DNA of 64,000 nt from Saccharofermentanales bacterium (GTDB taxonomy: Bacteria; Bacillota; Clostridia; Saccharofermentanales; DTU023): contig JBMNJZ010000001.1 in NCBI GenBank assembly GCA_050951925.1, forward strand, positions 464,284 to 528,283. Reading direction: 5' to 3'. Of the stretch, positions 3,701-16,582 are shown in pieces. Both the position numbers and the translations under genes were made by a program. Numbering within the stretch: position 1 is the stretch's first letter; every line of letters starts with the position of its first letter. Below the pieces are notes generated by a model. It searched no databases, was not told the DNA's origin, and saw nothing but the letters and a program-made list of their open reading frames with translations.

Positions 3701-4945
3701 TTCATCTATCTTGCCGTAGCGGGTCACACCGTCCTCTGTCTTTATGGCAAAGGAGGACACGAGGTTATACGGGTCGCCGGTTTCAACTTTTACCTGCCAT
3801 AATGCGGAAAGGTCTGCACCCTTATTGAAGCCATAGGTATCTAACACGCCATCGTATTTAATGCCCGTGCTTTCCTCATATGGCGTAACGGTGTACAGTA
3901 ACTTTTTATTCTCAAAAGAGCCTGCCGTTAGCTTCACCGTCAGCCAGCCGGTCGTGCCGATCACGGGCGCAGGCAGTCTGCCCAAATCAGTGCCGGCAGG
4001 GAAACGAATCGTAATGGTCTTACTGGCGGCGTCAACTATGCCCTTGGAGCTGCCTACGGCGTAGGAGTCTATAACAGGCTTGGCGATTCGGTTCTGCTCC
4101 ACATAATCAAGGTAGAACGGAGCGACGGTCTCGAGCAAGGCTTCATAGTAGTCTCTGCTGAAGTATCTTATCGCGCCCCTTCTGGCAAACTGTTCCAGCA
4201 ATGAGCGCAGTTCCGTTGGCGCAGCCGCGTCAAAGCAGTCGAAGTCCGTGAACAGGGTGACGGAAGTGTCGTCGTCCAGCAGGCTGCCAAAATTGAAGGA
4301 GAGCATCTTCTTTCCAAGGTAGTACAGCAGATTGGCGTGAACAGGGTGATAATCCCCGACGGCAAGGCTGCCCGTCTTTCTCGCCTGATAAAGCGCCTCC
4401 ATTTTAATATTATACTGCTGCAGCATATTCAGCAGAGGGTCAAGCACATAGTCGATGATGGCCGCCTTTTCATCTTCGGTATTCTGCCTCCCGCCCCGGT
4501 CTTCCTGCGCCATGATGAACATGGGATAGCCGCGCCCGTCCGTCGCGCGGACATAATACTTGACCGGCCTGGAGTGATCCGCGGGAAGGCTTTCGAGCGC
4601 GGTAAACGTGCTCGGCTGCCTCCTGGTTCCTGCCCGGTCGGTATAAAACGACTCCGGGGCGAAAGTCGTGCTGCCGCCGCTCGGCACATTGAGTATGGGC
4701 ATTATGTCGAGCACTCCGCCGCCCATGGCAGTTGTACTGTAAAGCGTCCCTGCGGCATCGCGCACGGACAAAACATTCCCATACGGTGAGGCGGAACCGC
4801 CCGTCCAGCCGACAAGATACGGCCAGGTGGTCGAGGTCAAATCATCGTTGTCCCACGCCAGCGCGGCGGTCGGCAGCAGGCTGAGCGCAATTACAGCGGT
4901 CAGTACAGTCGCGAGTATTCTTTTTAACAGTGAGTTCTTTTTCAT
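797..4945 (-). CDS. 1382-aa secreted surface protein: unknown N-terminal domain, many Ig-like beta-sandwich repeats, central alpha/alpha-toroid (prenyltransferase/terpene-cyclase-like, transcobalamin-alpha-like) domain
   Basis: Track ORF with signal peptide MKKNSLLKRILATVLTAVIALSLLPTAALA. It has about 10 modules of the type ..ITLPxGTDLxxLxPxI....(T)YTVTV. Residues ~650-950 (nt ~2095-2990) read WEWMDLGFYQNS..INGPVFALIALDMG..ETASWVIMALCSMG..YQGCYAAQWYLNF, which resembles helical-hairpin toroid repeat proteins. No LPXTG motif is seen. Confidence 0.75.
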   Translation of the reverse strand: MKKNSLLKRILATVLTAVIALSLLPTAALAWDNDDLTSTTWPYLVGWTGGSASPYGNVLSVRDAAGTLYSTTAMGGGVLDIMPILNVPSGGSTTFAPESFYTDRAGTRRQPSTFTALESLPADHSRPVKYYVRATDGRGYPMFIMAQEDRGGRQNTEDEKAAIIDYVLDPLLNMLQQYNIKMEALYQARKTGSLAVGDYHPVHANLLYYLGKKMLSFNFGSLLDDDTSVTLFTDFDCFDAAAPTELRSLLEQFARRGAIRYFSRDYYEALLETVAPFYLDYVEQNRIAKPVIDSYAVGSSKGIVDAASKTITIRFPAGTDLGRLPAPVIGTTGWLTVKLTAGSFENKKLLYTVTPYEESTGIKYDGVLDTYGFNKGADLSALWQVKVETGDPYNLVSSFAIKTEDGVTRYGKIDETAKTITLNLPVGTDLTSLSPVIDHTGTHTSMDAGNIDFTEPQTLTVSNSDYSLATDYTVTVTAQKSAECDILSYKIGDAVGTVTDANIAITIPYATDLSTTEPVIELAEFAALTAKPDTVAVGDNSYTVTAEDGTTKTYTVTVTRTAAATGSSILSFCYGSAGGTVDELSGTINMTLPAGTGSTFAPTIEVSPFATVAPASGTAQDFSKPVTYVVTAENGAQSTYTVTVSFSGTVAENEYKGDLQRVVGNIISRYRTEAEDDWEWMDLGFYQNSLANDSDEFSLADCIGGLDTSTNVAMTNIARKIMTMTARGFNCSNLAQYNGGAPYTDSKGNSVDDLAAVLYNYAGSYTINGPVFALIALDMGTYTIPENAVWTREALLEVLLNHKYLSDGFDTDMVAGIMYAIAPYRTDPVYGARVRSKLNEGLQIIINKMDASNYSFKAWGAVNSETASWVIMALCSMGIDCHVDPRFSDGAGHSALQYWMDNFANVSRGYFHHTSGVQNNAMATYQGCYAAQWYLNFLERGGQGSPYSLYYRRFDFSRQLSADASITAFEIEGKQGVITEGGEGGRNTIAITLPEGMSLANITPAITFAEGAALVAPTLPVTFVAGIEQPFTVLAEDGVTQKTYYVTVLLEDIGASGAEIDANSITIQNSVLNPRQILGRTLTENRELGTTDLLFTVTEGTDVTKLYLSASLSYGATVTPALDGKTLTDFSDWVTFVVTSEDGTNTHTYRIKVVAKAQAEITRFRVQAGGIWYDGVIDNDKNTVTVTGVDDSNLSSTRLVTDIDFTGKTCSPTSGAATDFASAATYTLSGDNDLASRSYTVSVLNKSGSPITASGSDTPITPAAGPQITGFSVLGVEAVIDQVLCTIEVTLPNGTDVTMVTPTVTVSSGCVVSPVSGEVVNLAVPVTYTVTLGTEVKSYTVSVVYERSISQQLWDEVTEDNTLTDHQVSRDPHGLPGGWDHR

Positions 4946-5050: not shown

Positions 5051-6274
5051 TTAGAAGTGAGACGTGTAGTCAGTGGTCAAAAACCATGTAAACCGCGCCG
5101 CATTGCCCAGCGGATAATCCGCTGCGCCTACCATGGGAACCTCACACGTCGGACTATACACACCGTCCATGTAGCACCAGCCGGACAGGGGGCCGGCGCT
5201 AAATTCACCCAGGCCGTTAAGCATGGAAAGATACGTGGCACTGCATGAAGTGGTATAGCTGAATAAGCCCTCTTCTTCTGCGAAATCGATGAAGGCCAGC
5301 ATAACGTCCATCACGCTGGCCGAGGTGCTGAAAATCGGATTGGTAGCATAGTAAGCAGCTAATGCTGTTGCGATTTCATCGATATTACTTGTGAACACAC
5401 CGCCGTAGTTCGGATCATTCTCCAGCTCAGTGAAATCGATGGCATATGTGCTTGCCGATATTCTGAAGCTAGTAGCGGGGTTCAGTACAGCTGATATGCT
5501 ATATTGTCTGGACGCCGTGCCGTTTGTAATGCTGAATGTGGGAGCAGCCGCACCCATGTTATAATAATAGTTCGTACCATTAACAATGACGCACCCCCCC
5601 GTCACAACGGAAGTGCCTGCGGAAAGAGAAAGTGTCATTGGAATAGTATTGCCGGAACCTTGATAGGTATAGCTGCCACCGATGTAATAAAGCATGGTGG
5701 CTGTATCCGTCCACAGGTAGTTGTTATCGAGGTAGTATCCGTTTCCAACATAATAGCTCTGCGCAACAGCGCCGTAGGCGTTTACCGTATTGTTGTTAAG
5801 CGTGACTGCGTGCACGCCCAGCGTATCGTTTTCGTCAATGGCAACATGACCTGCAAAGCCCGCTGCAAGATAATACGTATTACCGCTTACGGCAACCGAA
5901 TATCTGTTGTTCAGCAGGTTCAGCGTATAGGTGTAGGCATTGCCACTGGTTGATGTTGGAGTTACAGCAGCCGTGCCCGTCACAGTGGGGGTTGCGCCTG
6001 TTGTGGTTATAACAACGGTTATAGCCTGCAGATCCTCCAATGATACGGTTGCCGGAACCATTGCTCTGATATACTTGACATCGGAGCCGGTATTGTTGTC
6101 ATACTCGTAATATGCAGTCGTGCCACCAACAGTAACGGAGGATATTCCCGCCAGCGAGGTCACCTCAGTGCGTGCTGTCGGTCTGGTTCCTACTTCTGCC
6201 GTTGCAACGCCGCAAAGCGAGAACACCATTACGAGAGTAAGCAATACGGCCAATAGTTTTTTCATGTTCTTCAT
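5051..6274 (-). CDS. secreted protein with divergent C-terminal DUF4430-like (transcobalamin beta-domain-like) region
   Basis: ATG at 6274 follows GGAAGGAGGA. Signal peptide is MKNMKKLLAVLLTLVMVFSLCGVATAEV. The C-terminus reads ...LNGLGEFSAGPLSGWCYMDGVYSPTCEVPMVGAADYPLGNAARFTWFLTTDY. This parallels the SGWMYxVNxxxPxxGxxxYxLxxGDxIxWxYT pattern of the clear DUF4430 protein at 14716-15612. Confidence 0.6.
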   Translation of the reverse strand: MKNMKKLLAVLLTLVMVFSLCGVATAEVGTRPTARTEVTSLAGISSVTVGGTTAYYEYDNNTGSDVKYIRAMVPATVSLEDLQAITVVITTTGATPTVTGTAAVTPTSTSGNAYTYTLNLLNNRYSVAVSGNTYYLAAGFAGHVAIDENDTLGVHAVTLNNNTVNAYGAVAQSYYVGNGYYLDNNYLWTDTATMLYYIGGSYTYQGSGNTIPMTLSLSAGTSVVTGGCVIVNGTNYYYNMGAAAPTFSITNGTASRQYSISAVLNPATSFRISASTYAIDFTELENDPNYGGVFTSNIDEIATALAAYYATNPIFSTSASVMDVMLAFIDFAEEEGLFSYTTSCSATYLSMLNGLGEFSAGPLSGWCYMDGVYSPTCEVPMVGAADYPLGNAARFTWFLTTDYTSHF

Positions 6275-6405
6275 TTGTTCCTCCTTCCAAAAAACACGAT
6301 TATCCTTAGATTTGCGCAAATGCGCACACATCACCCCAATGGAGCCATCATTGAATTTACATCACCTCGCTCCCTGGTTGCCTGGTTTGAATAAAATATA
6401 TTTGT

Positions 6406-7330: not shown

Positions 7331-8653
7331 TCACTCCGCCCTCAGTGCAGCGTTAACCGAGATACGCATAGCCCTCTGCGCCGGTATAAATGCCGCAATC
7401 AGCGCCACTACGCCGGCCAGCGCCACGCCGGCAAGCGCAAGCCAAGCGGGGATAATGCTCCGCACCTGCATGTTTTCAAACAGTACGGGCAGAAACTTCT
7501 GTGCAATGTAGCTCAGCCCGAGGCCGAATAAGCCGCCCAATATGCCAAGTATCAGCGCTTCTACCAGGAACATGCCCGATATGCTGCCCAGCGGCGTGCC
7601 TATCACCTTCAGTATGCCTATTTCCTTCGTCCTCTCGGTTATGGACATCATCATCGTGTTCGCGACGCCTATCGCGCTCACAAGCAACGCCACCGCGCCT
7701 ATCGCACCAAGCATTCCCTGTATCTGGCGGGACTGCATCCGCACGGTTTCCAGCATGTCGTTTAGTGAATAAACCGAAAGTCCGCTGTTTCGTATAAGCT
7801 TCGCTATCCTCTGCACGTCCTGAACCTTTTTCACCTTTATCCATACCAGCTCATACGTCGGGTCATCATTCTCCTCCTCCGCCAGCTGCTTTTCGTCCTT
7901 TGTTATACCAAGGTAGTCCGAGTTTGCGTCTATCAGCTCATTCAGCCGGTCGAAGTCCATGAACGCTGCCGCTGAATAGGTGTTGTTCAGTGTGGAACAT
8001 ATGCCCGTAACGTTGAGTGTATAGAAAATGCCCGTCGGCAGTGCGCGGCCGTCGCTGTCCGCCTGCTGTTCGCCCGAAAGGTTTGAATAGTCAAACGTCA
8101 GCTTTATTTTCGCCGCCAGCGGGTCTATCAGCGCATTGCCGTCCGCATCCACTGCCGCCGCCCAGTCGTTCTTAGCATCGGCAAACGTTGCCGCCACATC
8201 GTCGGTGAACATCACGTCCGGACGCAGCCGCGTCCCCTCCCCCGGAGCCTCCCCGCGCTCGGGCGCTATCTGAAAGCTGCCCGCCGTACTCACATCTATA
8301 CCGTATATGCGTACCATGTTCACAAGGTTAGAGCACTTTATATACGCACTCTTCTGCACCACCGGCGTCACCGCCTCCACGCCCTCTATATTCTTAAAGG
8401 CGTTCACGGCCTTTTTGTTCAAAAGCGCCGTTTTATCCAGCAGCGTTCGATCGGCGGGCGTTACGTCTATCTTTGTCAGGCTGCCCAGTTGTTCTATGCT
8501 TTCACGGTAGGTTGCTTCGTAGCCAAGACCAACGGAAATAAGTACTATCACGCACATGACCCCTATGGTCATGGAAAGCGCCGTAAGCACCGTCCTTGAT
8601 TTTCGCCGCCACAGATTTATGCAGCCATAGCGGAATAAATCAAAGAATGTCAT
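7331..8653 (-). CDS. ABC transporter permease, FtsX/MacB type
   Basis: There is an N-terminal TM, a ~250-aa extracytoplasmic domain, and three C-terminal TMs. The family-typical ERTKEIGILKVIGT segment is present. Start and upstream stop form an ATGA overlap. Confidence 0.8.
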   Translation of the reverse strand: MTFFDLFRYGCINLWRRKSRTVLTALSMTIGVMCVIVLISVGLGYEATYRESIEQLGSLTKIDVTPADRTLLDKTALLNKKAVNAFKNIEGVEAVTPVVQKSAYIKCSNLVNMVRIYGIDVSTAGSFQIAPERGEAPGEGTRLRPDVMFTDDVAATFADAKNDWAAAVDADGNALIDPLAAKIKLTFDYSNLSGEQQADSDGRALPTGIFYTLNVTGICSTLNNTYSAAAFMDFDRLNELIDANSDYLGITKDEKQLAEEENDDPTYELVWIKVKKVQDVQRIAKLIRNSGLSVYSLNDMLETVRMQSRQIQGMLGAIGAVALLVSAIGVANTMMMSITERTKEIGILKVIGTPLGSISGMFLVEALILGILGGLFGLGLSYIAQKFLPVLFENMQVRSIIPAWLALAGVALAGVVALIAAFIPAQRAMRISVNAALRAE

Positions 8654-10602
8654 GCCCTTTTACCACCGTTCATTCTTCTCATATCGCCGTTGTAATCGTC
8701 TTTGAACTTCTTATTCTTGTTTCTGGACGATACTATCGCTATTATCACTATCGCCACTATCGCCAGCCCTAGCAAAAGCCACGCCCACCACGGCAGTTCG
8801 CCTTTCCTTGTGTCGGTTGAATCAACATCCGTCCCGTCGCCTGTTGGCGCGGCATCGCTGGTCGTGGGCTTAGCTTCCTCAACATTCAGCGTTACGGGTA
8901 CTTCCTGCGAATACTGCTGCCCGTTCGCATCCTCATACTGCACGAGCAGCTTGGCCGTGAATTCACCTATCTTGGTGCAGTTCACCTGGAAATCCGCGCT
9001 CAGCGTGCCGCCGGGCAGCAGGTCGCCCCCATAGTAGCTTTCCGCCATGGAGATGCCATCAAGTGCAAGTATCCTTACGTTGAGCGCCTTGCCGCGGCCC
9101 ATGTTCACCATGTTAAGATTCATAGACGTGGGCGTTTCCTGCGTGGGCTTGCCGTATACTACGGGCGCGTCTATGACTATGTCCATAGGCTGGCTTACGG
9201 GTATCATTATCGTCTGCGCCGCTTTGCCGGCTATCGAGTCGCTGTTCTCATATGTAAGATTCACGCCGACTGTGGAAAAACCTGCCTCGGCGTCCCTCTT
9301 TACGGATATGTTAAACTCAACCTCAGCCGTCTCGCCAGGCCCTAAAACACTCACATACGCCGCGTCGCTGCTGCCCACGCTAAGCGTAAGCCCGTTTGAA
9401 TCGGCAAGCGAAAGCGTTGCAACGTTCTTGAGCGCAGTATCATGCTTGGCGTTGTTTATAAGCATCAGACGTAGCGTTGCGTCGTCCCCCGCCATAAGAC
9501 CAGATACCTCGGCTCCGTTTACGAACAGCCTGTAGCCGGATACCATTACGGACATGGCCGTTTCCACCTTTTCTATCGGCGGAATTGGCGCAACGTAACC
9601 GTTTGTTATGTATACGTTCGTTGAAAACGTGCATTGCTGCGGTTCGCCGTTTTCATAATAGGTCGCAAGGAATTTCACATGTTTGTTGCCGCTGGTGGCG
9701 TAATATGAAACGGTGAAATCATATTCAACATATTCTATGCCGCCGGACTCCCAGCGTTCGAAATACCGGCCGTAGTTCATGTTCTCCGCTATGAACGGGA
9801 ACTCATCAAGAGAATTGGATATAACGGGGGATATGGTCACGCTTGTAAGCACGCCGCCCTTGTTCACTATAGGCACGCGCAGCGTAACATTCTGCTTGGG
9901 TTTCAATATGGGGGCTTCGGACACGCCGGACTGATCGGCCGCGGCTATCTGCAACGGGCCGAAACTGGTTGTAACACCAGATTCGCTGCCGTCGCCCATA
10001 AGTGTTATATATACGCAAAGGTTGAACGTAACGTCCTCTGTGATGGAAGTCCCGTTCACGTCATCATACCGCCACACAGTCGCGTTTACTTCGAAGTTCA
10101 CGGGGTACACGCCCTTTGTTGCGAACTCGCTTATGCGGAAATCGTAGTACACCTCTGCCGTGGAGTTATACGACATATCGTCAAGATGGCGCGTATAGCT
10201 GGCGTTTATGAGATCGAACGGCCAATTGGATACGGACATATCATTGGGTATTTTGGGTGATATGGTTATGTTTCTGAGCATATACCTTTCGCTGGGCAAA
10301 TATTCGCGGTTCACCGCCACCGGCAGAACTATCGTTACAACTTCTCCCGGAACACCCTTGGGACTCTGCGCCCCTACATCCATAAGCACCAGCGCGTTTG
10401 CGTTGCTGGGTATCACCACGATGTCCGTGTTCGGTTCTTCGTCCACTACTGGTATGTCGGGTGCGGACGTGTTTGTGGTGGCCTGCGATTTCTCCGACGC
10501 GGACGTTTCTCCGCCGTTTTCCGCAAACACGGGCATTGCAAATGTCAATGCCAGTGTCGCAACGATCATAAGTGCCGTGATCTTCTTCAAAATTCTGTTC
10601 AC
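8650..10602 (-). CDS. 650-aa surface protein, repeated beta-sandwich (CARDB/COG1361-like) domains, C-terminal TM anchor
   Basis: GTG start lies 9 nt after GGAGGA. The signal peptide is MNRILKKITALMIVATLALTFAMPVFA. The C-terminus LPWWAWLLLGLAIVAIVIIAIVSSRNKNKK is a TM plus a positively charged tail. The gene sits between the MacB-type ATPase and permease genes. Confidence 0.65.
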   Translation of the reverse strand: MNRILKKITALMIVATLALTFAMPVFAENGGETSASEKSQATTNTSAPDIPVVDEEPNTDIVVIPSNANALVLMDVGAQSPKGVPGEVVTIVLPVAVNREYLPSERYMLRNITISPKIPNDMSVSNWPFDLINASYTRHLDDMSYNSTAEVYYDFRISEFATKGVYPVNFEVNATVWRYDDVNGTSITEDVTFNLCVYITLMGDGSESGVTTSFGPLQIAAADQSGVSEAPILKPKQNVTLRVPIVNKGGVLTSVTISPVISNSLDEFPFIAENMNYGRYFERWESGGIEYVEYDFTVSYYATSGNKHVKFLATYYENGEPQQCTFSTNVYITNGYVAPIPPIEKVETAMSVMVSGYRLFVNGAEVSGLMAGDDATLRLMLINNAKHDTALKNVATLSLADSNGLTLSVGSSDAAYVSVLGPGETAEVEFNISVKRDAEAGFSTVGVNLTYENSDSIAGKAAQTIMIPVSQPMDIVIDAPVVYGKPTQETPTSMNLNMVNMGRGKALNVRILALDGISMAESYYGGDLLPGGTLSADFQVNCTKIGEFTAKLLVQYEDANGQQYSQEVPVTLNVEEAKPTTSDAAPTGDGTDVDSTDTRKGELPWWAWLLLGLAIVAIVIIAIVSSRNKNKKFKDDYNGDMRRMNGGKRA

Positions 10603-10607
10603 TTGTT

Positions 10608-11315
10608 TTATTCCTCCGCTGATGTGTTGCTGATCTTACCGTCGCTTAAGGTTATCGTCCGGTCTGTATATTTCCTCATTTCCGGGTCGTGGGATACGAG
10701 TATGAACGTGGTCCCCTTTTCCCGGAAAAGACCCGTCAAAAGCTCCATCGTATCCTCGCTCGTGCTCGTGTCCAGGTTGCCCGTGGGCTCGTCTGCAAGC
10801 ACTATGGGCGGGCGGGCTATAACAGCCCTGGCTATGCCTACCCTTTGCTGCTGCCCTCCGGAAAGCTCGCCCGGCTTATGGTGTATGTGCTCTTTTAATC
10901 CCACGCGCACCAGCAAAGCTTCCGCCATAGCTTTCCTAAGCTTCAGCGGCGCGCCGCGTATCGCAAGCGGCAGCGCCACATTTTCAAGCGCCGTATATTG
11001 CGGCATAAGGTTATAGCTTTGGAATACGAAGCCTATGTCGTCCCGCCGCAAGCGTATCCTTGCCCTTTCGCTCATGCGTTCAAGCCGCTTGCCGGTCACC
11101 TGCACCGTGCCCGCCGTAGGCAGCTCAAGTCCTGCAAGCATGTTGAGCAAGGTGGATTTTCCGCTTCCGCTGCGCCCGGCTATGCATAGGAACTCGCCCT
11201 TACCTACGGCTATGTCCACCCCGTCAAGTGCCCTGACGGTGCTTGCGCCCACGGTATAGTATTTTTTGAGCCCCTCGACGCGTATGATGCAATCCTTTTC
11301 CGTTATCGCTACCAC
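10608..11315 (-). CDS. ABC transporter ATP-binding protein, MacB/LolD/FtsE subfamily
   Basis: Walker A is GRSGSGKST, the signature is LSGGQQQRV, and Walker B is VLADEPTGNLD. The probable GTG start at 11315 follows GAGGAGGAA and overlaps the upstream TGGTAG stop. The longer track ORF starting at 11378 is likely an artefactual extension. Confidence 0.85.
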   Translation of the reverse strand: MVAITEKDCIIRVEGLKKYYTVGASTVRALDGVDIAVGKGEFLCIAGRSGSGKSTLLNMLAGLELPTAGTVQVTGKRLERMSERARIRLRRDDIGFVFQSYNLMPQYTALENVALPLAIRGAPLKLRKAMAEALLVRVGLKEHIHHKPGELSGGQQQRVGIARAVIARPPIVLADEPTGNLDTSTSEDTMELLTGLFREKGTTFILVSHDPEMRKYTDRTITLSDGKISNTSAEE

Positions 11316-12256
11316 GCTTCCTCCTCCATGGCGCCAAATTCCGTATAACTTGGCCCCTCCGGCGGGGGCAAAGCACAATTCTGTTCCTCCGCCACAAGGC
11401 CAAACTTCACCTTGACCCTCTCAAGCTTTTTTATCCACGGTTCACCAAGCGTCCACAGCACAAGGAATGTGCATACTCCGTGACTCAAATCGAACGTGAA
11501 GCTCGATACATACGCCGCACCCACCGTCTGCCATGTTATGGGCGAAATATAACCCACAATAAAGAACAGATTCATGATCCAGCCGTATAAAAAGCCTGTT
11601 ATAAGACCGTACATGCAAAGCCTGACAGGCGCCTTGTCCGCAATGCGACGGGCGAAATAAAGCAAGTCCCCCCGGTTGGTGTTCGCGGGGCAGAGCCTTT
11701 GCCATATCGGGGAGGTGAAACGCTCGCGCTTGCTGCCCCCTGCAAAGAAGCCCCCGTTCTGCAAAAGCCCCGCTATGAAGCCGATAAGCCCCCACGAAAA
11801 CATCTGCCACGGCGTCCACGGCCCCTGCCCAAATATGAAGTTCGAAACAAAGCCCGTCAGAGCCCCTGTCATGAACCCCGCCTCCGGGCCGAAGGCCACG
11901 CCCGTAATTATGACTATGGCGGACACCGGCTTGAAGTTTGGCAGGGGTATGACGGCGAATACTGTCCGTCCCACGACGCCTATCGCCGCCATGACTGCCA
12001 TTGGTATCATATCCCGCGGCTTGGGCTTCTTCCTGTCGAACACGAGGACGAAGGGGATGGAGCATGCCGCGAGGAATACAAGCCCCAGCAGTATGTCGGA
12101 ATTGAGTATCACATAATCCCAAAACGTGCGCTTCCCGACCACGTTCACGGGCGACCTGTGGCCGTGATAATATCCGAACGCCACGAGCAGCACCGGCAGC
12201 ACCGCCATGATGACGGCGGTGGCCTTAGTGCGCGCCCTTACGAACAGCTTTCGCAC
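11309..12256 (-). CDS. ECF-transporter S-component-like integral membrane protein (unusually long, 315 aa)
   Basis: The protein is polytopic. It contains ..AVIPLPNFKPVSAIVIITGVAFGPEAGFMTGALTGFVSNFIFGQGPWTPWQMFSWGLIGFIAG.., recalled from the ECF S-component (ECF_trnsprt) family. It lies immediately downstream of the EcfT and EcfAA' genes. Confidence 0.6.
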   Translation of the reverse strand: MRKLFVRARTKATAVIMAVLPVLLVAFGYYHGHRSPVNVVGKRTFWDYVILNSDILLGLVFLAACSIPFVLVFDRKKPKPRDMIPMAVMAAIGVVGRTVFAVIPLPNFKPVSAIVIITGVAFGPEAGFMTGALTGFVSNFIFGQGPWTPWQMFSWGLIGFIAGLLQNGGFFAGGSKRERFTSPIWQRLCPANTNRGDLLYFARRIADKAPVRLCMYGLITGFLYGWIMNLFFIVGYISPITWQTVGAAYVSSFTFDLSHGVCTFLVLWTLGEPWIKKLERVKVKFGLVAEEQNCALPPPEGPSYTEFGAMEEEAW

Positions 12257-13857
12257 AGGGCGATCACCTCCTCACTCGTGATGGCGTTTGGGAAATATTC
12301 GCGAGCGACGCGGTTCGCGTCCGTTGTATAAAAACGGTTCTCAGCAAAAAAAGCGTGGGGTTCATCCTCAGACAGGATTTCTCCGTCAAACATGAGGGCG
12401 CAGCGATCAGCGTAGCGTGCTGCGAATTCCACATCATGCGTTACAACCAAAATAGAGACGCCGTCCCGGCAAAGGGATTGCAAAAGCTCCGCAAGACTTT
12501 GCTTGGCAGAGGCATCCAAACCTTTGGTAGGCTCGTCCAGCAACAGCACATCTGCATCCCGGAGCAGGAGCTTTGCAATAGCCAGCCGTTCGGTTTCGCC
12601 GCCGGACAGATCGTAGGGATGCCGCGCAAGCAAGGCAGTAAGCTCCAGCCGGTCCGCCATGTCGGCTGCCTTGGCCTCGTCGTCTTCCGCACAGTCAAGG
12701 AGCTCGCCTTTTACCGTATCCGTTACAAACAGCATTTTTGCGTTTTGGGGCAGCATGCACACCTTTTCGCCCTTTAAGGCGCTCACCTTACCCCGATAGG
12801 GCTTTTGCGTGCCAACAAGCGCCTGAAGGAGCGTGCTTTTGCCCGCGCCGTTGCCGCCCAAAAGGCACATAAGCTCGCCCTTGTAAAGGCTTATATCAAG
12901 CCCGCGCAGAACGTCCCTTTCAGTCTCGCCATAGCGGAACCAAAGCTCATGGGCCGAAAGCACGGGCTTTTGCTTAATAGGCCTCGCCTTCTTTATGCTT
13001 TCCGCTTGCGCCGGAACGGTCTTGTCCCGCAGATAACCCTTCAGGGCCATTCGCCCGTCCCGCACAGTGAGGGGCAGCCTTTCCGCCCCAAGCTGCGCAA
13101 ATATGCGCACCGTCGCGGGCAGTCCGAGCCAAACACGGCTTTGCCCCATTTGCGTGCCCAGCGTCCGGGCTATTTCCTGCGGCGCGCCGCAGGAAAGTAG
13201 GCGTCCGCGCTCCATTATGACCACCCTGTCGGCGGCGGGGAAAACCTGCTCGAGCCTGTGCTCCGTCAGCAGCACTGCAACGCCAAGCTCACGGTTCACC
13301 CGACGCACGGTGTCCAGCAGGTTCCGTGCCGCAAGGGGGTCGAGCATGGCGGTGGGCTCGTCCAATATGAGAAGCCGGGGGCTCATGGCGAGGACGGAGG
13401 CGAGGTTGATCAGCTGCTTCTGCCCGCCAGAAAGCTCCACCGTCCTTTTGCGGAACCAGGGTTCCATGCCGAAGAACGCCGCCATCTCGGCCACCCGCCT
13501 GCGGATGACCGGCACAGGCAACGCAAGATTTTCAAGCCCGAACGCAAGCTCGTGCCACACGAAGTCGGTTACTATTTGGTTATCGGGGTCTTGCTGCACG
13601 AAGCCGATATCAGCTGCCGCCGCCAGCGGTTCAAGCTCGCCAAGGGGCTTTTCCTCAAAATAGACCGCGCCCTCCCGCGCGCCCGCGGGGATAAGCTCCG
13701 GCTTGGCGTGGCGAAGGAGCGTGGTTTTGCCGCAACCCGAAGGTCCGGAGAGCACCACATATTCGCCTTCCTCAATGGATAGTGAAAAGCGGTCCACCGC
13801 ACGCTGCCGGGCATGGGGATAAGCAAAGCTCAGCTCTTCAAACCGTACGAGCGCCAT
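12238..13857 (-). CDS. fused ECF transporter ATPase (EcfA-EcfA', two NBDs)
   Basis: There are two complete NBDs: GPSGCGKTT/LSGGQKQL/LILDEPTAMLD and GGNGAGKST/LSGGETERL/LLLDEPTKGLD. The likely start is MALVRFEELSFAY (13857) after GGAG. The track extension to 14010 overlaps ecfT and is probably spurious. Confidence 0.85.
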   Translation of the reverse strand: MALVRFEELSFAYPHARQRAVDRFSLSIEEGEYVVLSGPSGCGKTTLLRHAKPELIPAGAREGAVYFEEKPLGELEPLAAAADIGFVQQDPDNQIVTDFVWHELAFGLENLALPVPVIRRRVAEMAAFFGMEPWFRKRTVELSGGQKQLINLASVLAMSPRLLILDEPTAMLDPLAARNLLDTVRRVNRELGVAVLLTEHRLEQVFPAADRVVIMERGRLLSCGAPQEIARTLGTQMGQSRVWLGLPATVRIFAQLGAERLPLTVRDGRMALKGYLRDKTVPAQAESIKKARPIKQKPVLSAHELWFRYGETERDVLRGLDISLYKGELMCLLGGNGAGKSTLLQALVGTQKPYRGKVSALKGEKVCMLPQNAKMLFVTDTVKGELLDCAEDDEAKAADMADRLELTALLARHPYDLSGGETERLAIAKLLLRDADVLLLDEPTKGLDASAKQSLAELLQSLCRDGVSILVVTHDVEFAARYADRCALMFDGEILSEDEPHAFFAENRFYTTDANRVAREYFPNAITSEEVIALCESCS

Positions 13858-14723
13858 ATGACCGTCTCCTTTGCTTCCAAAAATGTGGGCAACGCCATGA
13901 GAAGACCGAACACGACAAACATCGTGACGCTTGGCGTTCCCATGACGGCCGCAGTCATGGCAGGGTAAAACTCCATATAGCCATGGCCGTATATTCTGCC
14001 CGCAAAGCATATGCCCGCAAGCGTCAGCATAAGCGCCAGCACCCGCGTGTCCCGTCCGTCAAAGCGGAACAGATGGAATGTGGTGCGCCGTTTTTCGCCG
14101 TATCCCCGCGCCTTCATGGAATCCGCGGTCCCAACCGCGCTCTCCATGCTCATTGTGAGAAGCACGGAGAGATTGCGCATGGCCGTGCCAAGCTTTTGAA
14201 AAAGGCGCGTGTCCTCGTTTCTGAGCATTTTCTGGGCGTTCCTTATCTCCCGCGCGTTTTGTTTAAGTTCAGGAACGAAGCGTAGTGTCATGGTGATAAG
14301 AAGTGCCGTGGCGGGCGCGAGCTTTCCGAATAAATAAAGAAATTTGTCGCTGGTCATAACCTCCTGATAGCAGGTGAACCACATAACTATCGCGCATAGC
14401 GTGCAGGCTGAAACAAGGCCGTAAAGTATCGCCTCAAGGGTTATCCATTGATCAAACAGCAGAAACAGCATCGTTACACCCCGGTGGTTAAAAAGCGGGT
14501 TTGCGATCGCTATGAACAAAAACATGGGCGCAATAAAGCGCAGGGTGGCAAAAAACGCCTTCTTCCCCCTAAGCCTGAAGCTGAAAGCCGCTGAGCCCAT
14601 TAGCGACAGGCCTGCCATAACAGGATGAAAGCAAGCAAGCGTAAAGGCGAGCACAGTTATGAAATAGCTCATACTCACCGCCGGATGCAGATTGTTAAAA
14701 TAGCGCATCCTCATATCACTCAT
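13830..14723 (-). CDS. ecfT: ECF transporter transmembrane (T) component, CbiQ/EcfT family
   Basis: The protein is polytopic. The C-terminal coupling region ..LLTMSMESAVGTADSMKARGYGEKRRT.. is typical of CbiQ/EcfT. The start MSDMRMRY overlaps the upstream stop. Confidence 0.8.
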   Translation of the reverse strand: MSDMRMRYFNNLHPAVSMSYFITVLAFTLACFHPVMAGLSLMGSAAFSFRLRGKKAFFATLRFIAPMFLFIAIANPLFNHRGVTMLFLLFDQWITLEAILYGLVSACTLCAIVMWFTCYQEVMTSDKFLYLFGKLAPATALLITMTLRFVPELKQNAREIRNAQKMLRNEDTRLFQKLGTAMRNLSVLLTMSMESAVGTADSMKARGYGEKRRTTFHLFRFDGRDTRVLALMLTLAGICFAGRIYGHGYMEFYPAMTAAVMGTPSVTMFVVFGLLMALPTFLEAKETVIWRSYGLKS

Positions 14724-15612
14724 GCGTATCCTTCCATTCCTGTGCACCTGCATACCATGTCGGGTCCAGGTCAAGCCCGAGATCGCAGGTGTAGTTCCAT
14801 TCGATCCTGTCGCCGGGCTTTAGGAAATACACGCCGCAGCCATAGTTTGGATACCAATCATTCACACAGTACATCCATCCGCTCCAGCGCCCGCCGTCGA
14901 ACTCATAAAGGTTATTGATGCCTTCCACATATGCGCCGCTGCCGGATCCGCCGGAGTATTCCATATGCAACTTGAATTTGTCACGCGCCATTTTCAACAC
15001 ATCAAGCACGGTATCGCCGTCTTTTATCTCAAATGTTGTGGTGTCAAGTATGCAGCCTGATGCGGGAACTATGCCCGCCCACTTGGCCTCAAGGTGCATT
15101 CCGTTGGCTACCGCCGTATCGCAGCGTATGTGCATGGTAACGGTGTCCTTCTTGGGTTCTGCCGTCTGGACAGGCGCGGGTGTTATAGAGGCCTGCGGCT
15201 CGTGGATTTGCTTTCCGTCCGGCTTTTCGGTTTTGGGTTTTGGTGCGAAGGGAGTGACCGCCGCGCTTGACTCAGGTACGGGTGTATTGTCGCTCCTTTG
15301 TGGGCGCCCGTCAGGCGCTGTGCCCAGCTCGTAAAATTCCTTTACATTGTCGGGAGCAGAGCTTGGTGTTTGCGCAGCAGGCCTATCCACGCTTGGCACG
15401 TTGCCGAAGCTGAACGCGTCCTTAATCCACACATACCATGGTCTTTTGCTAGCCTCAGGCGCGTTTGCCGCCGCGTTTTCGTTTTCTATGTAATCAAGCT
15501 CAAGCTGTTCGTCGTCGCTTGACGCCACTGTATCCCATTGGGCGCAGGCGGCCATGGCGAAAAGCGCAGCCAGAACCATAATAAGTGCAAGTGCCTTTTT
15601 TACTCCTAGCAT
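14716..15612 (-). CDS. lipoprotein with C-terminal DUF4430 (transcobalamin/intrinsic-factor beta-domain-like) domain
   Basis: The lipobox is MLGVKKALALIMVLAALFAMAAC, followed by a Pro/Ala/Glu-rich linker. The C-terminus reads DTVTMHIRCD..FEIKDGDTVLDVLKMA..YVEGINNLYEFDGGRWSGWMYCVNDWYPNYGCGVYFLKPGDRIEWNYTCDLGLD, which matches my recollection of the DUF4430 signature. Confidence 0.75.
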   Translation of the reverse strand: MLGVKKALALIMVLAALFAMAACAQWDTVASSDDEQLELDYIENENAAANAPEASKRPWYVWIKDAFSFGNVPSVDRPAAQTPSSAPDNVKEFYELGTAPDGRPQRSDNTPVPESSAAVTPFAPKPKTEKPDGKQIHEPQASITPAPVQTAEPKKDTVTMHIRCDTAVANGMHLEAKWAGIVPASGCILDTTTFEIKDGDTVLDVLKMARDKFKLHMEYSGGSGSGAYVEGINNLYEFDGGRWSGWMYCVNDWYPNYGCGVYFLKPGDRIEWNYTCDLGLDLDPTWYAGAQEWKDTHE

Positions 15613-16187
15613 GTCGCATTCTCCTTTTTATTCTGCGTGGCGGGCTTTGCCTCGCTCTCCTGCTGCTGCTCCTGTTCCCTGGCAGCTGTTACGGCATCCG
15701 GCCCGCCATCCAGGCGCAGAACACAGAAGCCACCTTCAGCAGACATATCCACAAAGGCTTCTCCCTGCGTAAGATCGAAAACTACATACTCCTGCGGGCT
15801 TACATTTGCCTGCTTTTTTTCTCCGGTAGAGTCAGCAGATGATCCGCTAGAGTGCCGAGCTTGAAGGATGATGCTTGTCTGTGTGTTCTCTTCCAGCCTA
15901 ACGCAGTTCGTTTCGCCCAGAGACAACGTGACGGTGGAGGCGTTCAGTGTTTCTATCCTATCGCCGTCCCTGATATTGACATCGTTCTTAAGCGAGTAGG
16001 ATATGCCTGCGCGCTCAATACTGACGCTACCTGATTTGCCGCTGGAGATAAATGTCAGCTGCTCGTTCTCCGGCTTATCGAACCAGCCCTGCAAACTGCC
16101 TATATTGAGTACGACTGCAATAATTATGGCAACGATCGCCACTACCATTATGAGATTGAGTAGCTTTTTCTTTTTTAAGGAGTTCAT
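15606..16187 (-). CDS. membrane-anchored protein of unknown function (first gene after riboswitch)
   Basis: MNSLKKKKLLNLIMVVAIVAIIIAVVLNIG is an N-terminal TM. It is followed by a small beta-rich domain and a Glu/Gln-rich tail. I recognise no family signature with confidence. Confidence 0.55.
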   Translation of the reverse strand: MNSLKKKKLLNLIMVVAIVAIIIAVVLNIGSLQGWFDKPENEQLTFISSGKSGSVSIERAGISYSLKNDVNIRDGDRIETLNASTVTLSLGETNCVRLEENTQTSIILQARHSSGSSADSTGEKKQANVSPQEYVVFDLTQGEAFVDMSAEGGFCVLRLDGGPDAVTAAREQEQQQESEAKPATQNKKENATC

Positions 16188-16210: not shown

Positions 16211-16243
16211 AAAAAAAGCTGTGACGAGAAAATCATCACAGCC
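16211..16243 (-). terminator. intrinsic terminator forming the riboswitch expression platform
   Basis: The minus strand reads GGCUGUGAUGAUUUUCUCGUCACAGCUUUUUUUAU: a GCUGUGA/UCACAGC stem followed by U7. It sits between the aptamer and the first start codon. Confidence 0.75.
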
Positions 16244-16284
16244 ATATGTCTGTATATCTATTTGCTCCCAATTAAAGGGTACGC

Positions 16285-16505
16285 AAACACCTCTTGTAGG
16301 TCTTCTGACTTACGCTTTCTAAAGAAATAATTTCCTTAAGTGACCATGCTCTGCCTTCTCAAGATCCTCTTGCACTTTCAGATCCCAATGACTGATTTTC
16401 ATCAACGAGCACGGCACAGGCGCTTACAGCGGCGGATACCGTCCGGGACTTGCACCCGGTTCCCTTGTCCATCTCCGAAGTCTCGTCCGCTTCGGAGCCA
16501 CAAAA
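16285..16505 (-). promoter_or_regulatory. cobalamin (B12) riboswitch aptamer
   Basis: The minus strand reads ...CUCCGAAGCGGACGAGACUUCGGAGAUGGACAAGGGAACCGGGUGCAAGUCCCGGACGGUAUCCGCCGCUGUAAGCG...AUCAGUCAUUGGGAUCUGAAAGUGCAAGAGGAUCUUGAGAAGGCAGAG...GCGUAAGUCAGAAGACCUACAAGAGG. This matches recalled conserved blocks of the cobalamin riboswitch: GGGAA..GGUG.AA.UCC....CCGC.GCUGUAA; GCCACUGG-like ..GGGAAGGC-like; and the B12 box AGUCAG.AGACCUGC-like. Confidence 0.85.
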
Positions 16506-16553
16506 GACGAATATTTACTTGTCAATTAGCACACGGACATTTGTCTAAATATC

Positions 16554-16582
16554 ACTATAAAAGCTCTGGATAATTATGTCAA
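16554..16582 (-). promoter_or_regulatory. sigma70-type promoter of the B12 operon
   Basis: The minus strand has TTGACA (16582-16577), a 17-nt spacer, then TATAGT (16559-16554), directly upstream of the riboswitch. Confidence 0.65.

What the first reader, a model, noticed from the sequence alone, without database searches (positions are those of the whole stretch)
14716..15612. Stand-alone DUF4430 lipoprotein as second gene of the B12 operon, directly coupled to ecfT
- **Seen:** the protein has a lipobox (..FAMAAC), a ~140-aa low-complexity Pro/Ala/Glu linker, and a C-terminal ~125-aa domain ending ..GGRWSGWMYCVNDWYPNYGCGVYFLKPGDRIEWNYTCDLGLD. Its stop overlaps the ecfT start (ATGAGTGA).
- **Established:** DUF4430 corresponds to the B12-contacting beta domain of transcobalamin and intrinsic factor.
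- **Inference:** this is a tethered, flexible-linker corrinoid shuttle that delivers ligand to the ECF S component. That would be a substrate-binding-protein-like accessory, which canonical ECF transporters are not supposed to need.
Basis: partly seen in the sequence, partly recalled or inferred. Interest (0 to 1): 0.62.

Follow-up and report, generated by a model that had tools for sequence, protein, structure and literature searches.

The report
Tethered B12-binding lipoprotein beside ECF transporter
A membrane-anchored protein whose folded end resembles the vitamin-B12-gripping half of human transcobalamin sits just ahead of a B12-regulated ECF vitamin importer; it is a typical member of a large family predicted in 2007 to scavenge B12, whose binding has not been demonstrated in any paper found here.

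Summary
The 298-aa ORF at 15612..14716 (-) has a lipobox (Cys23) and a Pfam DUF4430 hit (E=2.4e-18). Its stop overlaps the ecfT ATG, and it is the second ORF after a cobalamin riboswitch (69 bits).

An AlphaFold model of residues 155-298 (pLDDT >90) matches only intrinsic factor, transcobalamin and haptocorrin beta domains at E<=1e-4. The S component's best solved relative is CbrT, the B12-specific ECF subunit.

In 80 related genomic loci, the lipoprotein gene directly precedes ecfT-ecfAA'-S in 56. A lipobox is present in 61, and a B12 riboswitch in about 33 of 50 assessable loci.

Corrections:
- The "linker" is not all low complexity. Residues 37-97 carry a conserved motif, which tracks a downstream MacB-type ABC plus 650-aa surface-protein module.
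- The cluster also encodes a second beta-like protein.
- A 1382-aa surface protein in the cluster carries an alpha/alpha-toroid, the fold of transcobalamin's other half.

The interpretation as a tethered corrinoid-capture accessory is plausible but unproven, and it is not new. Burroughs et al. 2007 predicted it, and the Lactobacillus sakei lsa1836-1840 study (2019) proposed the same hand-off, for heme.

Verdict: new member of a known, biochemically untested kind. Interest 0.4.

The parts
16554..16582 (-). sigma-70-like promoter (TTGACA-17-TATAGT, 11 of 12 matches)
   Evidence: consensus match only
16278..16520 (-). Cobalamin riboswitch aptamer (RF00174)
   Evidence: 69.4 bits against a gathering score of 31.5, E=4.8e-15, full-length model match
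16217..16243 (-). Terminator-like hairpin plus T-run directly after the aptamer (likely expression platform, OFF switch)
   Evidence: 11-pair stem followed by TTTTTTTATAT
15606..16187 (-). ORF1: 193 aa with a single N-terminal hydrophobic segment and no family match. Its stop overlaps the lipoprotein ATG (ATGCTAG).
   Evidence: Found only in L001, where the middle third is replaced. Coding status is uncertain.
14716..15612 (-). The finding: a 298-aa lipoprotein with a C-terminal transcobalamin-beta-like (DUF4430/SLBB) domain
15544..15612 (-). Signal peptide and lipobox (residues 1-23, AMAAC, Cys23)
   Evidence: Cys23 invariant; lipobox found in 61 of 80 related loci
15322..15504 (-). Conserved N-terminal motif region (residues 37-97: LDLDY ... 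PWYxWIxDAFSFG ... PDSVxxxYxxG)
   Evidence: Low-confidence short helices at 60-66 and 90-95.
15145..15321 (-). Variable Pro-rich linker (residues 98-156)
   Evidence: pLDDT <50 for most of it, rising towards the domain
14719..15144 (-). Folded beta-grasp domain (residues 157-298), hyperconserved (mean column identity 0.87)
   Evidence: pLDDT >90; intrinsic factor, transcobalamin and haptocorrin beta domains; TM 0.72 to 5no0
13830..14723 (-). ecfT (CbiQ family T component). Its ATG overlaps the lipoprotein stop by 8 nt.
   Evidence: PF02361; EcfT chains 4huq_T, 4hzu_T, 5d3m_D
12238..13857 (-). Fused EcfA-EcfA' double ATPase
   Evidence: two ABC_tran stretches; ECF_ATPase_1 at 311.7 and ECF_ATPase_2 at 281.8 bits. 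The start at MALVRF is inferred.
11309..12256 (-). S component, CbrT-like: 315 aa with two extra N-terminal hydrophobic segments
   Evidence: PF07155, PF12822; best PDB hit 6FNP_A, the ECF-CbrT entry, E=6.4e-8
10608..11378 (-). LolD/MacB-type ABC ATPase
   Evidence: TIGR02211 LolD at 241.9 bits, below its cutoff; conserved downstream in about 40 of 80 loci
8650..10602 (-). 650-aa surface protein: signal peptide, weak Ig-like (CARDB/NPCBM_assoc) hits and a C-terminal membrane anchor
   Evidence: always paired with the LolD-like ATPase
7331..8653 (-). FtsX/MacB-type permease with a MacB periplasmic core domain
   Evidence: the same gene is present in L003
6843..7334 (-). 163-aa ORF encoding a putative small lipoprotein (..LLTAGCACS..) with no family match
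5051..6334 (-). Second secreted SLBB protein: signal peptide, Thr/Ser/Tyr-rich region and a weak C-terminal DUF4430 match
   Evidence: (E=0.001, below the Pfam cutoff)
797..4945 (-). 1382-aa surface protein (DUF5018 repeats, DUF6242) containing an alpha/alpha-toroid domain
2129..2980 (-). Alpha/alpha-toroid domain inside the 1382-aa protein (about residues 656-939): a candidate transcobalamin-alpha-like partner
   Evidence: phmmer E=1.7e-12, 1.8e-9 and 6.9e-9 to toroid proteins encoded just upstream of the lipoprotein gene in L064, L063 and L058. Model pLDDT 79.7, pTM 0.77. Foldseek hits are terpene cyclases and transcobalamin, E 1e-3 to 5e-2.

Best explanation
The gene encodes a lipid-anchored, extracytoplasmic corrinoid-capture protein. 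It consists of a signal peptide with a lipobox, a roughly 130-residue mostly disordered tether, and a C-terminal beta-grasp domain of the transcobalamin/intrinsic-factor beta type. It is transcribed only when B12 is scarce, through a riboswitch followed by a terminator. It is translationally coupled to a dedicated ECF module (EcfT, fused EcfA-A') with a CbrT-like S component.

Proposed working:
1. The beta-like domain binds cobalamin or related corrinoids near the membrane, as the isolated transcobalamin beta domain does.
2. It may clamp the ligand together with the alpha/alpha-toroid domain of the 1382-aa surface protein, forming a split transcobalamin.
3. This raises the local corrinoid concentration for the S component, or hands the ligand to it, and the ECF module imports it.

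Basis of each step:
- Shown here: the fold, the lipobox, the operon position, and conservation of the gene order and of the riboswitch.
- Inferred: ligand identity, cooperation with the toroid, and direct hand-off to the S component.
For: - Pfam DUF4430, E=2.4e-18.
- AlphaFold model of residues 155-298 has pLDDT >90.
- Every Foldseek PDB hit with E<=1e-4 is an intrinsic factor, transcobalamin or haptocorrin beta domain, or the bacterial DUF4430 structure 3u7z. TM to the isolated transcobalamin beta domain (5no0) is 0.72.
- The profile alignment to human transcobalamin 325-409 is weak. Its register nonetheless places the family's most conserved block, Y228..G260, on the segment after the transcobalamin helix. 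That segment is where Burroughs et al. locate the base-stacking hairpin insert.
- Cobalamin riboswitch plus terminator lie upstream.
- The S component's best solved relative is 6FNP chain A, E=6.4e-8. 6FNP is the ECF-CbrT entry, and that transporter carries cobalamin and cobinamide but is not inhibited by hemin.
- In 80 related loci the gene directly precedes ecfT-ecfAA'-S in 56.
- A start codon overlapping the stop (-8 or -4) is present in most of those loci.
- A lipobox is present in 61 of 80 loci.
- A plus-strand cobalamin riboswitch heads the operon in about 33 of 50 assessable loci, spanning Clostridia, Bacilli and Thermoleophilia.
- The isolated transcobalamin beta domain binds cyanocobalamin and cobinamide, and alpha-beta assembly is cobalamin-dependent (PMC5599065).
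- In rat transcobalamin, cobalamin/beta-domain contacts rank above cobalamin/alpha-domain contacts (PMC11107200).
- An alpha/alpha-toroid domain is encoded in the same cluster. It is encoded immediately upstream of the lipoprotein gene in L058, L063 and L064.
Against: - There is no binding or transport data for this protein or any close relative.
- Sequence similarity to transcobalamin is undetectable by HMMER and weak by hhalign (9% probability), so contact residues cannot be claimed as conserved.
- ECF-CbrT works without any accessory.
- The closest relatives (L002-L005, 62-70% identity) and about 12 other loci have the lipoprotein followed directly by the MacB-type module, with no adjacent ECF genes.
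- An Oscillospiraceae clade (L007-L018, L050) has no riboswitch at the Rfam gathering score and no B12 box.
- The only genetic study of a system with this architecture reported a heme-uptake phenotype.
Confidence: 0.6

Rival explanations
1. The lipoprotein works mainly with the MacB-type ABC (LolD-like ATPase plus FtsX permease) and the 650-aa surface protein, not with the ECF transporter. Its conserved N-terminal motif would be the handle by which that machine holds, moves, releases or mechanically opens the binder. On this reading, adjacency to ecfT reflects co-regulation only.
For: - The closest relatives and about 16 loci in total have the lipoprotein gene followed directly by the LolD-like ATPase and the surface protein, without ECF genes.
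- The N-terminal LDxDY motif and the module co-occur in 38 loci and are both absent in 22, with 2 discordant loci.
- L023 and L025 carry a separate cobalamin riboswitch in front of the module.
- The ATPase's best NCBIfam match is lipoprotein-releasing LolD.
Against: - Motif-bearing proteins form essentially one clade: 45 of 46 fall in one cluster. The co-occurrence may therefore reflect a single inheritance event.
- 29 loci have ECF genes but no MacB module.
- Overlapping stop and start codons with ecfT are conserved.
- MacB-type ABC systems are not known to be importers (own knowledge).
Confidence: 0.15
2. The system scavenges heme or another tetrapyrrole rather than corrinoids, as claimed for Lactobacillus sakei lsa1836-1840.
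For: - A deletion of the five-gene L. sakei operon lowered heme accumulation, and complementation restored it. That operon encodes alpha-like and beta-like secreted proteins plus T, AA' and S components.
Against: - Here the operon is headed by a cobalamin riboswitch, as in most relatives.
- The S component's nearest solved relative is in the ECF-CbrT entry, and hemin does not compete with ECF-CbrT transport.
- The L. sakei effect appeared only at 5-40 uM hemin, and the proposed binding rested on docking alone.
Confidence: 0.08
3. The protein sequesters corrinoids at the cell surface, either to deprive competitors or to store them, without feeding a particular transporter. Alternatively it selects among corrinoid analogues by their lower ligand.
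For: - The fold is that of high-affinity carriers.
- The cluster encodes several extracellular SLBB and toroid proteins.
- Related loci come largely from gut and rumen metagenome-assembled genomes, a habitat where competition for B12 is described for Bacteroides surface lipoproteins (PMC6143338, listed).
Against: Conserved translational coupling to ecfT, and co-regulation by a switch that turns the operon on when B12 is scarce, fit uptake better than hoarding.
Confidence: 0.1
4. The ECF system imports cobalt ions (CbiMNQO-like), and the lipoprotein is a metal-binding accessory. The solved DUF4430 structure 3u7z is deposited as a 'putative metal binding protein'.
For: - The T component matches the Pfam family named 'Cobalt transport protein'.
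- The description of 3u7z.
- B12 riboswitches also control cobalt transporters (own knowledge).
Against: - The S component matches PF07155 and PF12822 and the ECF-CbrT entry, not CbiM, and no CbiN is present.
- The fold matches corrinoid carriers.
Confidence: 0.03

Closest known systems
Beta domain of transcobalamin, intrinsic factor and haptocorrin (Pfam DUF4430; transcobalamin-like clade of the SLBB beta-grasp superfamily)
   Same: - The fold is the same (Foldseek probability 1.00, TM 0.72 to 5no0), and the Pfam family is the same.
- The isolated beta domain can bind cobalamin and cobinamide.
   Different: - There is no covalently attached alpha domain.
- It is lipid-anchored on a long tether.
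- It has about 40 extra residues: a conserved insert after strand 1 (IRCDTAVxNGMHLExKWAGIVPASG) and a C-terminal helix.
- It has four conserved cysteines.
- Sequence identity is 17-21%, and HMMER sees no relationship.
Secreted bacterial transcobalamin-like SLBB proteins in CbiO/CbiQ operons (Burroughs, Balaji, Iyer and Aravind 2007, PMC1796856)
   Same: - This is the same class: signal-peptide-bearing SLBB proteins encoded with a CbiO-like ATPase and a CbiQ-like membrane protein.
- A second paralogous SLBB protein and an alpha/alpha-toroid often occur alongside.
- The class was predicted to scavenge B12.
   Different: That paper predates the ECF concept. In the passages searched and the context section read, the words riboswitch, lipoprotein and ABC transporter do not occur, and no CbrT-type S component or MacB-type module is described.
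Lactobacillus sakei Lsa1839 (beta-like) and Lsa1840 (alpha-like) with ECF Lsa1836-1838 (Verplaetse et al., bioRxiv 10.1101/864751)
   Same: - The gene logic is the same: a beta-like exported protein next to T, fused AA' and S.
- The authors explicitly propose that the extracellular proteins hand ligand to the S component.
- They treated Lsa1839 among the putative substrate-binding lipoproteins.
   Different: - Their claimed substrate is heme.
- The alpha-like protein there is a separate adjacent gene, whereas here the toroid is embedded in a 1382-aa protein about 10 kb downstream.
- Sequence relationship to Lsa1839 was not tested here.
ECF-CbrT of Lactobacillus delbrueckii (PDB 6FNP; Santos et al. 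2018, PMC5997447)
   Same: - The S component here is its nearest solved relative (E=6.4e-8).
- Both are ECF-type B12 importers.
   Different: - ECF-CbrT needs no extracellular accessory.
- The S chain matched in 6FNP is 182 aa, against 315 aa here with two extra N-terminal hydrophobic segments.
Bacteroides BtuG and BtuH surface B12-binding lipoproteins (PMC6143338, PMC8941943)
   Same: These are functional analogues: surface lipoproteins encoded in B12 transport loci that capture B12 for a membrane transporter (abstracts listed).
   Different: - They belong to Gram-negative organisms, and their partner is the TonB-dependent transporter BtuB (own knowledge).
- Their folds are unrelated to this one according to my recollection; this was not tested here.
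RUMGNA_00854 of Ruminococcus gnavus (PDB 3u7z)
   Same: It is a solved bacterial stand-alone DUF4430 domain and matches the model at E=8.8e-5, TM 0.68.
   Different: - It is only 96-97 residues, with 12-13% identity.
- It is deposited as a 'putative metal binding protein'.
- Its genomic context was not examined.

Membership tests
Pfam PF14478 DUF4430 / transcobalamin-like C-terminal (SLBB) domain | Profile match above the curated gathering score | tested here: met
   66.8 bits against 23.8, E=2.4e-18, residues 199-275. Precomputed PF14478 is recorded on all listed homologues.
Pfam PF14478 DUF4430 / transcobalamin-like C-terminal (SLBB) domain | Beta-grasp fold with a beta-hairpin insert after the helix, superimposable on transcobalamin and intrinsic factor beta domains | tested here: met
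   Model element order is E157-163, E187-195, H202-213, E217-220, E228-232, E245-250, E269-275. Top Foldseek hits are 3kq4, 2pmv, 2bb6, 5no0 and 4kki at E 4.5e-7 to 2.3e-5.
Pfam PF14478 DUF4430 / transcobalamin-like C-terminal (SLBB) domain | Binds cobalamin or other corrinoids | not testable with these tools
   This needs purified protein. Only the register of a weak hhalign alignment is available.
Bacterial lipoproteins (Lgt/Lsp substrates) | N-terminal signal peptide ending in a lipobox with an invariant Cys | tested here: met
   The signal peptide is MLGVKKALALIMVLAALFAMAAC. Cys23 is invariant in A1, a lipobox is found in 61 of 80 loci, and there is a single hydrophobic segment at 7-25.
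Bacterial lipoproteins (Lgt/Lsp substrates) | Actual lipidation and surface exposure | not testable with these tools
   No experimental data are available.
Group I (dedicated-module) ECF transporter of the CbrT (vitamin B12) type | T component, two A-type ATPase domains and an S component encoded together | tested here: met
   PF02361 with EcfT PDB chains; two ABC_tran stretches with ECF_ATPase_1 and ECF_ATPase_2; PF07155 and PF12822.
Group I (dedicated-module) ECF transporter of the CbrT (vitamin B12) type | S component related to CbrT | tested here: met
   The best PDB hit is 6FNP_A at E=6.4e-8, but it covers only residues 85-161. No NCBIfam model reaches its cutoff.
Group I (dedicated-module) ECF transporter of the CbrT (vitamin B12) type | Transports cobalamin and/or cobinamide | not testable with these tools
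   Supported only indirectly, by the riboswitch.
Substrate-binding proteins of classical ABC importers (for example BtuF) | Two alpha/beta lobes joined by a hinge, docking on the permease | tested here: not met
   The fold is a single beta-grasp domain, and no SBP appears among the fold matches. 'SBP-like' can therefore only describe a role, not membership.
Split transcobalamin-like system (separate alpha-toroid and beta proteins, as in L. sakei Lsa1840 and Lsa1839) | An alpha/alpha-toroid protein encoded with the beta-like protein | tested here: met
   There is a toroid domain in the 1382-aa protein of the same cluster. In L063 a toroid plus SLH protein lies directly upstream of the lipoprotein gene. 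Specific kinship to the transcobalamin alpha domain rather than to terpene cyclases is not resolved.
Split transcobalamin-like system (separate alpha-toroid and beta proteins, as in L. sakei Lsa1840 and Lsa1839) | Ligand-dependent assembly of the two parts | not testable with these tools
   Known only for human transcobalamin domains.
CbiMNQO cobalt ECF transporter | CbiM-type S component with CbiN | tested here: not met
   The Pfam scan of the seven cluster proteins from ORF1 to the 650-aa protein returned no CbiM or CbiN match.

The most novel reading that the evidence does not exclude
The locus would encode a two-motor corrinoid relay of a Gram-positive envelope:
- Wall-level binders: the alpha/alpha-toroid on the 1382-aa protein and the 427-aa SLBB protein.
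- The tethered beta-domain lipoprotein. Together with the toroid it would form a split transcobalamin.
- A dedicated MacB/LolCDE-like ABC plus the 650-aa surface protein. This machine would recognise the lipoprotein's conserved N-terminal LDxDY/WYxW..AFSFG motif. It would use ATP to reposition or release the lipoprotein, or to pry the tightly bound corrinoid loose for the CbrT-like S component.

If so, an ECF transporter would depend on an extracytoplasmic binding protein that is itself serviced by a mechanotransducing ABC system.
Probability: 0.12. Interest if true: 0.75.

Novelty: new member of a known kind. Interest (0 to 1): 0.4.

Why it matters
How Gram-positive gut anaerobes capture scarce B12 is much less understood than the Bacteroides BtuB/BtuG/BtuH route.

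ECF transporters are defined by having no soluble binding protein. A demonstrated extracytoplasmic corrinoid binder feeding an ECF S component would soften that textbook distinction. It would also explain part of the competition for B12 in the gut.

The family is large: 6798 representatives of 50%-identity clusters at E<=1e-3. It is conserved next to ecfT in Clostridia, Bacilli and some Actinobacteria. One biochemical result would therefore annotate thousands of genes.

This window adds no new principle. Both the prediction (2007) and the hand-off model (2019) already exist.

Tried and rejected
- **Sequence searches of the PDB found no transcobalamin relative.** This covered the protein and two profiles. 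The only hits were low-complexity noise, such as circumsporozoite protein. The link exists at fold level only.
- **hhalign against human transcobalamin 325-409 was too weak to use.** It gave E=0.0036 and 9% probability, which does not support claims about contact-residue conservation.
- **NCBIfam has no model for the lipoprotein, ORF1 or EcfT**.
- **Pfam finds nothing for ORF1, the 163-aa lipoprotein or the toroid region**, even at E<=10.
- **The 427-aa protein is not a full alpha-plus-beta transcobalamin homologue.** Its N-terminal part is Thr/Ser/Tyr-rich and has no similarity to the toroid proteins. No structure was predicted for it.
- **ORF1 is not a conserved operon member.** It occurs only in L001, and diverged there. 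Relatives carry an HNH_repeat protein or a toroid protein in that position instead.
- **No riboswitch was found in the Oscillospiraceae clade.** One sub-threshold hit appeared in L014 (22.8 bits). An E-value scan of five further loci found none, and no B12 box was found by pattern.
- **The motif/MacB-module correlation is not repeated independent co-occurrence.** The motif-bearing proteins form one clade.
- **Two papers could not be read:** Rodionov et al. 2009 and Wuerges et al. 2006 are not held in the library.
Full report
**Observation**

The ORF at 15612..14716 on the minus strand encodes 298 residues with the quoted C-terminus. Its features are as follows.
- The N-terminus, MLGVKKALALIMVLAALFAMAAC, is a signal peptide ending in a lipobox. 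Cys23 is invariant in 18 aligned homologues.
- It is the only hydrophobic segment in the protein.
- Pfam gives DUF4430 at 66.8 bits, E=2.4e-18, for residues 199-275.
- The stop codon lies inside ATGAGTGA, whose ATG opens the ecfT frame.
- Upstream are a promoter-like site, a full-length Cobalamin riboswitch (69.4 bits) and a terminator-like hairpin with a T-run. A 193-aa ORF1 follows, and its stop overlaps the lipoprotein ATG.

- In an alignment of close homologues, the region between Cys23 and the folded domain is not uniformly low complexity. Residues 37-97 carry a conserved motif, LDLDY...PWYxWIxDAFSFG...PDSVxxxYxxG, with mean column identity 0.60. Only residues 98-156 are a variable Pro-rich linker, at 0.40.
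- The conserved folded unit spans residues 157-298, so it is 142 aa rather than about 125.

**The locus**

All genes from 16187 down to 797 lie on the minus strand with little or no spacing. In order they are:
1. ORF1.
2. The lipoprotein.
3. EcfT (PF02361).
4. A fused double ECF ATPase.
5. An S component (PF07155 and PF12822).
6. A LolD/MacB-type ATPase.
7. A 650-aa surface protein with a signal peptide and a C-terminal anchor.
8. An FtsX/MacB_PCD permease.
9. Two small ORFs (163 and 146 aa); the first has a lipoprotein-like N-terminus.
10. A 427-aa secreted protein with a weak C-terminal DUF4430 match.
11. A 1382-aa DUF5018 surface protein.

The S component's best solved relative is chain A of 6FNP at E=6.4e-8. 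6FNP is the entry for ECF-CbrT, the vitamin B12 ECF transporter of L. delbrueckii. No CbiM or CbiN was found in the seven cluster proteins scanned, so this is a B12-type ECF system and not a cobalt-type one.

**The protein**

AlphaFold2, run on a 97-sequence alignment, gives pLDDT above 90 for residues 155-298. The N-terminal 150 residues are mostly low-confidence, with two short helices at 60-66 and 90-95.

Foldseek against the PDB returns 19 hits at E<=0.001.
- 17 of them are intrinsic factor, transcobalamin or haptocorrin.
- The other two are the R. gnavus DUF4430 structure 3u7z.
- TM to the isolated transcobalamin beta domain is 0.72.
- Generic ubiquitin-like beta-grasp proteins follow only at E>0.03.

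UniRef names relatives 'Transcobalamin-like C-terminal domain' proteins, and vertebrate transcobalamins are described as carrying DUF4430 at their C-terminus (PMC4350170).

HMMER cannot see the relationship, and hhalign is weak. In its register, Tyr228, Trp246 and Gly258 correspond to transcobalamin Tyr362, Trp377 and Gly390. The family's most conserved block (228-260) falls on the segment after the helix, where Burroughs et al. place the base-stacking hairpin insert.

**Comparative evidence**

The family is large.
- At least 7988 proteins were found in the 90%-identity cluster search, which capped at 8000 candidates.
- In the library of 50%-identity representatives there are 6798 hits at E<=1e-3 and 3939 at 1e-10. 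Most of the listed ones are 230-450 aa with the domain at the extreme C-terminus.

A genome scan fetched 80 loci. The nearest is a Saccharofermentanales metagenome-assembled genome at 93% identity. The others are Christensenellaceae, Oscillospiraceae, Lachnospiraceae, Tissierella, Desulfosporosinus, Clostridium, Heyndrickxia, Bacillus, Thermoleophilia and Coriobacteriales.

Across these 80 loci:
- The lipoprotein gene is followed directly by ecfT-ecfAA'-S in 56.
- An ATG overlapping its stop, at -8 or -4, is present in most of those 56.
- A lipobox is present in 61.

Of the 61 loci scanned with Rfam:
- About 33 have a plus-strand cobalamin riboswitch at the head of the operon.
- 17 have none at the gathering score. 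Most of these belong to one Oscillospiraceae clade, which also lacks a B12 box.
- 11 are cut off before the operon start.

Two architectures appear.
- **Class A**, which includes the window: a small, variable first gene, then the lipoprotein, then ECF genes (sometimes absent), then the LolD-like ATPase, the 650-aa protein and FtsX.
- **Class B**: a large surface protein with SLBB and/or alpha/alpha-toroid domains, then the lipoprotein, then the ECF genes. In L063 the upstream protein has SQHop_cyclase_C/Prenyltrans and SLH domains.

The window turns out to contain a toroid as well. Residues of about 710-965 of the 1382-aa protein match the toroid proteins of L064, L063 and L058 at E=1.7e-12 to 6.9e-9. 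The modelled region (pLDDT 79.7, pTM 0.77) is an all-helical toroid that hits terpene cyclases and transcobalamin at TM of about 0.44.

**Mechanism**

The best-supported reading is a lipid-anchored corrinoid-capture protein that serves a B12-starvation-induced ECF-CbrT-type importer.
- **Shown:** the fold, the anchor signal, riboswitch control, and conserved coupling to ecfT.
- **From established knowledge:**
  - The isolated transcobalamin beta domain binds cobalamin and cobinamide, and the alpha and beta domains assemble only with ligand (PMC5599065).
  - Ligand contacts with the beta domain rank above those with the alpha domain (PMC11107200).
- **Inferred:** that this domain binds corrinoids, that it pairs with the toroid as a split transcobalamin, and that it hands the ligand to the S component.

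Three results argue against an obligatory role.
- ECF-CbrT works alone.
- The closest relatives lack adjacent ECF genes.
- The N-terminal motif follows the MacB-type module. Both are present in 38 loci, both absent in 22, and 2 loci are discordant. This is essentially one clade, however.

**Rivals**
- A client or partner of the MacB-type ABC (confidence 0.15).
- Surface sequestration or analogue selection (0.10).
- Heme scavenging, as reported for L. sakei (0.08). The riboswitch, the CbrT-like S component and the micromolar hemin needed in that study count against it.
- A cobalt-ion accessory (0.03). No CbiM or CbiN is present.

**Comparison with what is known**

Burroughs et al. 2007 defined the SLBB superfamily. 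They noted that bacterial transcobalamin-like members carry signal peptides. These members often co-occur with a second SLBB paralogue and with alpha/alpha-toroids, and sit in operons with CbiO-like and CbiQ-like genes. The carrier organisms usually lack key B12 biosynthesis enzymes. The authors concluded that these proteins scavenge B12 or its precursors.

The L. sakei study described a beta-like protein (treated there among the putative lipoproteins) and an alpha-like protein next to T, AA' and S. It proposed that they pass ligand to the S component, and explicitly remarked that ECF transporters normally lack soluble binding proteins.

Literature searches for DUF4430, 'transcobalamin-like', SLBB with cobalamin, and CbrT or ECF with extracellular binders found no biochemical test of such a protein.

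**Verdict**

The sequence features are real, and the functional idea is reasonable. Both are already in the literature as predictions, and this gene is one ordinary member of a very large family.

What this analysis adds:
- the CbrT link;
- the conserved lipobox and start/stop overlap;
- the non-trivial N-terminal motif and its association with a MacB-type module;
- the presence of the transcobalamin-alpha-like fold elsewhere in the same cluster.

Novelty: new member of a known kind. Interest: 0.4.

Noticed in passing
window 15322-15504 (lipoprotein residues 37-97); window 7331-11378; loci L001-L047: The supposed linker carries a bipartite motif: LDxDY, then about 20 residues later WYxW..AFSFGKK or WLKxKLSxDKK. 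Its presence tracks the downstream LolD-like ATPase, 650-aa surface protein and FtsX module: both present in 38 loci, both absent in 22, and 2 discordant. The motif-bearing proteins form one clade, so this may reflect a single inheritance event.
   Followed up: partly
window 797-4945, toroid at about 2129-2980: The 1382-aa DUF5018 surface protein at the end of the cluster contains an alpha/alpha-toroid domain. It is related to the toroid proteins encoded just upstream of the lipoprotein gene in L058, L063 and L064. This is the fold of transcobalamin's alpha domain, which suggests a split transcobalamin.
   Followed up: yes
window 5051-6334: A second secreted protein has a weak C-terminal DUF4430/SLBB match (E=0.001, below the Pfam cutoff) after a Thr/Ser/Tyr-rich region. 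This fits the 2007 remark that such operons often encode a paralogous SLBB protein.
   Followed up: partly
window 15606-16187; L001 6450-7013; L003 6544-6906; L014 6102-6824: ORF1 has no family match and is found only in L001, where its middle third is replaced. In close relatives the same slot between the riboswitch and the lipoprotein gene holds a small protein with a 'homing endonuclease associated repeat' (PF18780), which is unexpected in a B12 uptake operon.
   Followed up: partly
L007-L018 and L050 (Oscillospiraceae-type loci): This clade keeps the lipoprotein-ECF-MacB gene order but shows no cobalamin riboswitch at the gathering score and no B12 box. There is only one 22.8-bit hit, in L014. 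Its regulation may differ, or it may use a divergent aptamer.
   Followed up: partly
L023 9267-9478; L025 8643-8860: A separate cobalamin riboswitch sits directly in front of the LolD-like ATPase gene, downstream of the ECF genes. In these loci the MacB-type module therefore has a cobalamin riboswitch of its own.
   Followed up: no
window 11309-12256: The CbrT-like S component is 315 aa, against 182 aa for the matched chain of 6FNP. It has two extra hydrophobic segments (residues 12-30 and 55-73) ahead of the homologous core, and extra length after it. S components in related loci range from about 235 to about 465 aa.
   Followed up: partly
window 14719-15144 (lipoprotein residues 164, 216, 249, 259, 276): Four cysteines (C164, C249, C259, C276) and His216 are invariant or nearly so across the wider family. 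They could form two disulfides or supply a cobalt ligand.
   Followed up: no
L002-L005, L017, L024, L029-L031, L034, L036, L038, L039, L043, L045, L054: In these loci the lipoprotein gene is followed directly by the MacB-type module, with no ECF genes in the fetched flanks. They include the closest relatives after L001. Several also carry a further large SLBB protein downstream.
   Followed up: partly
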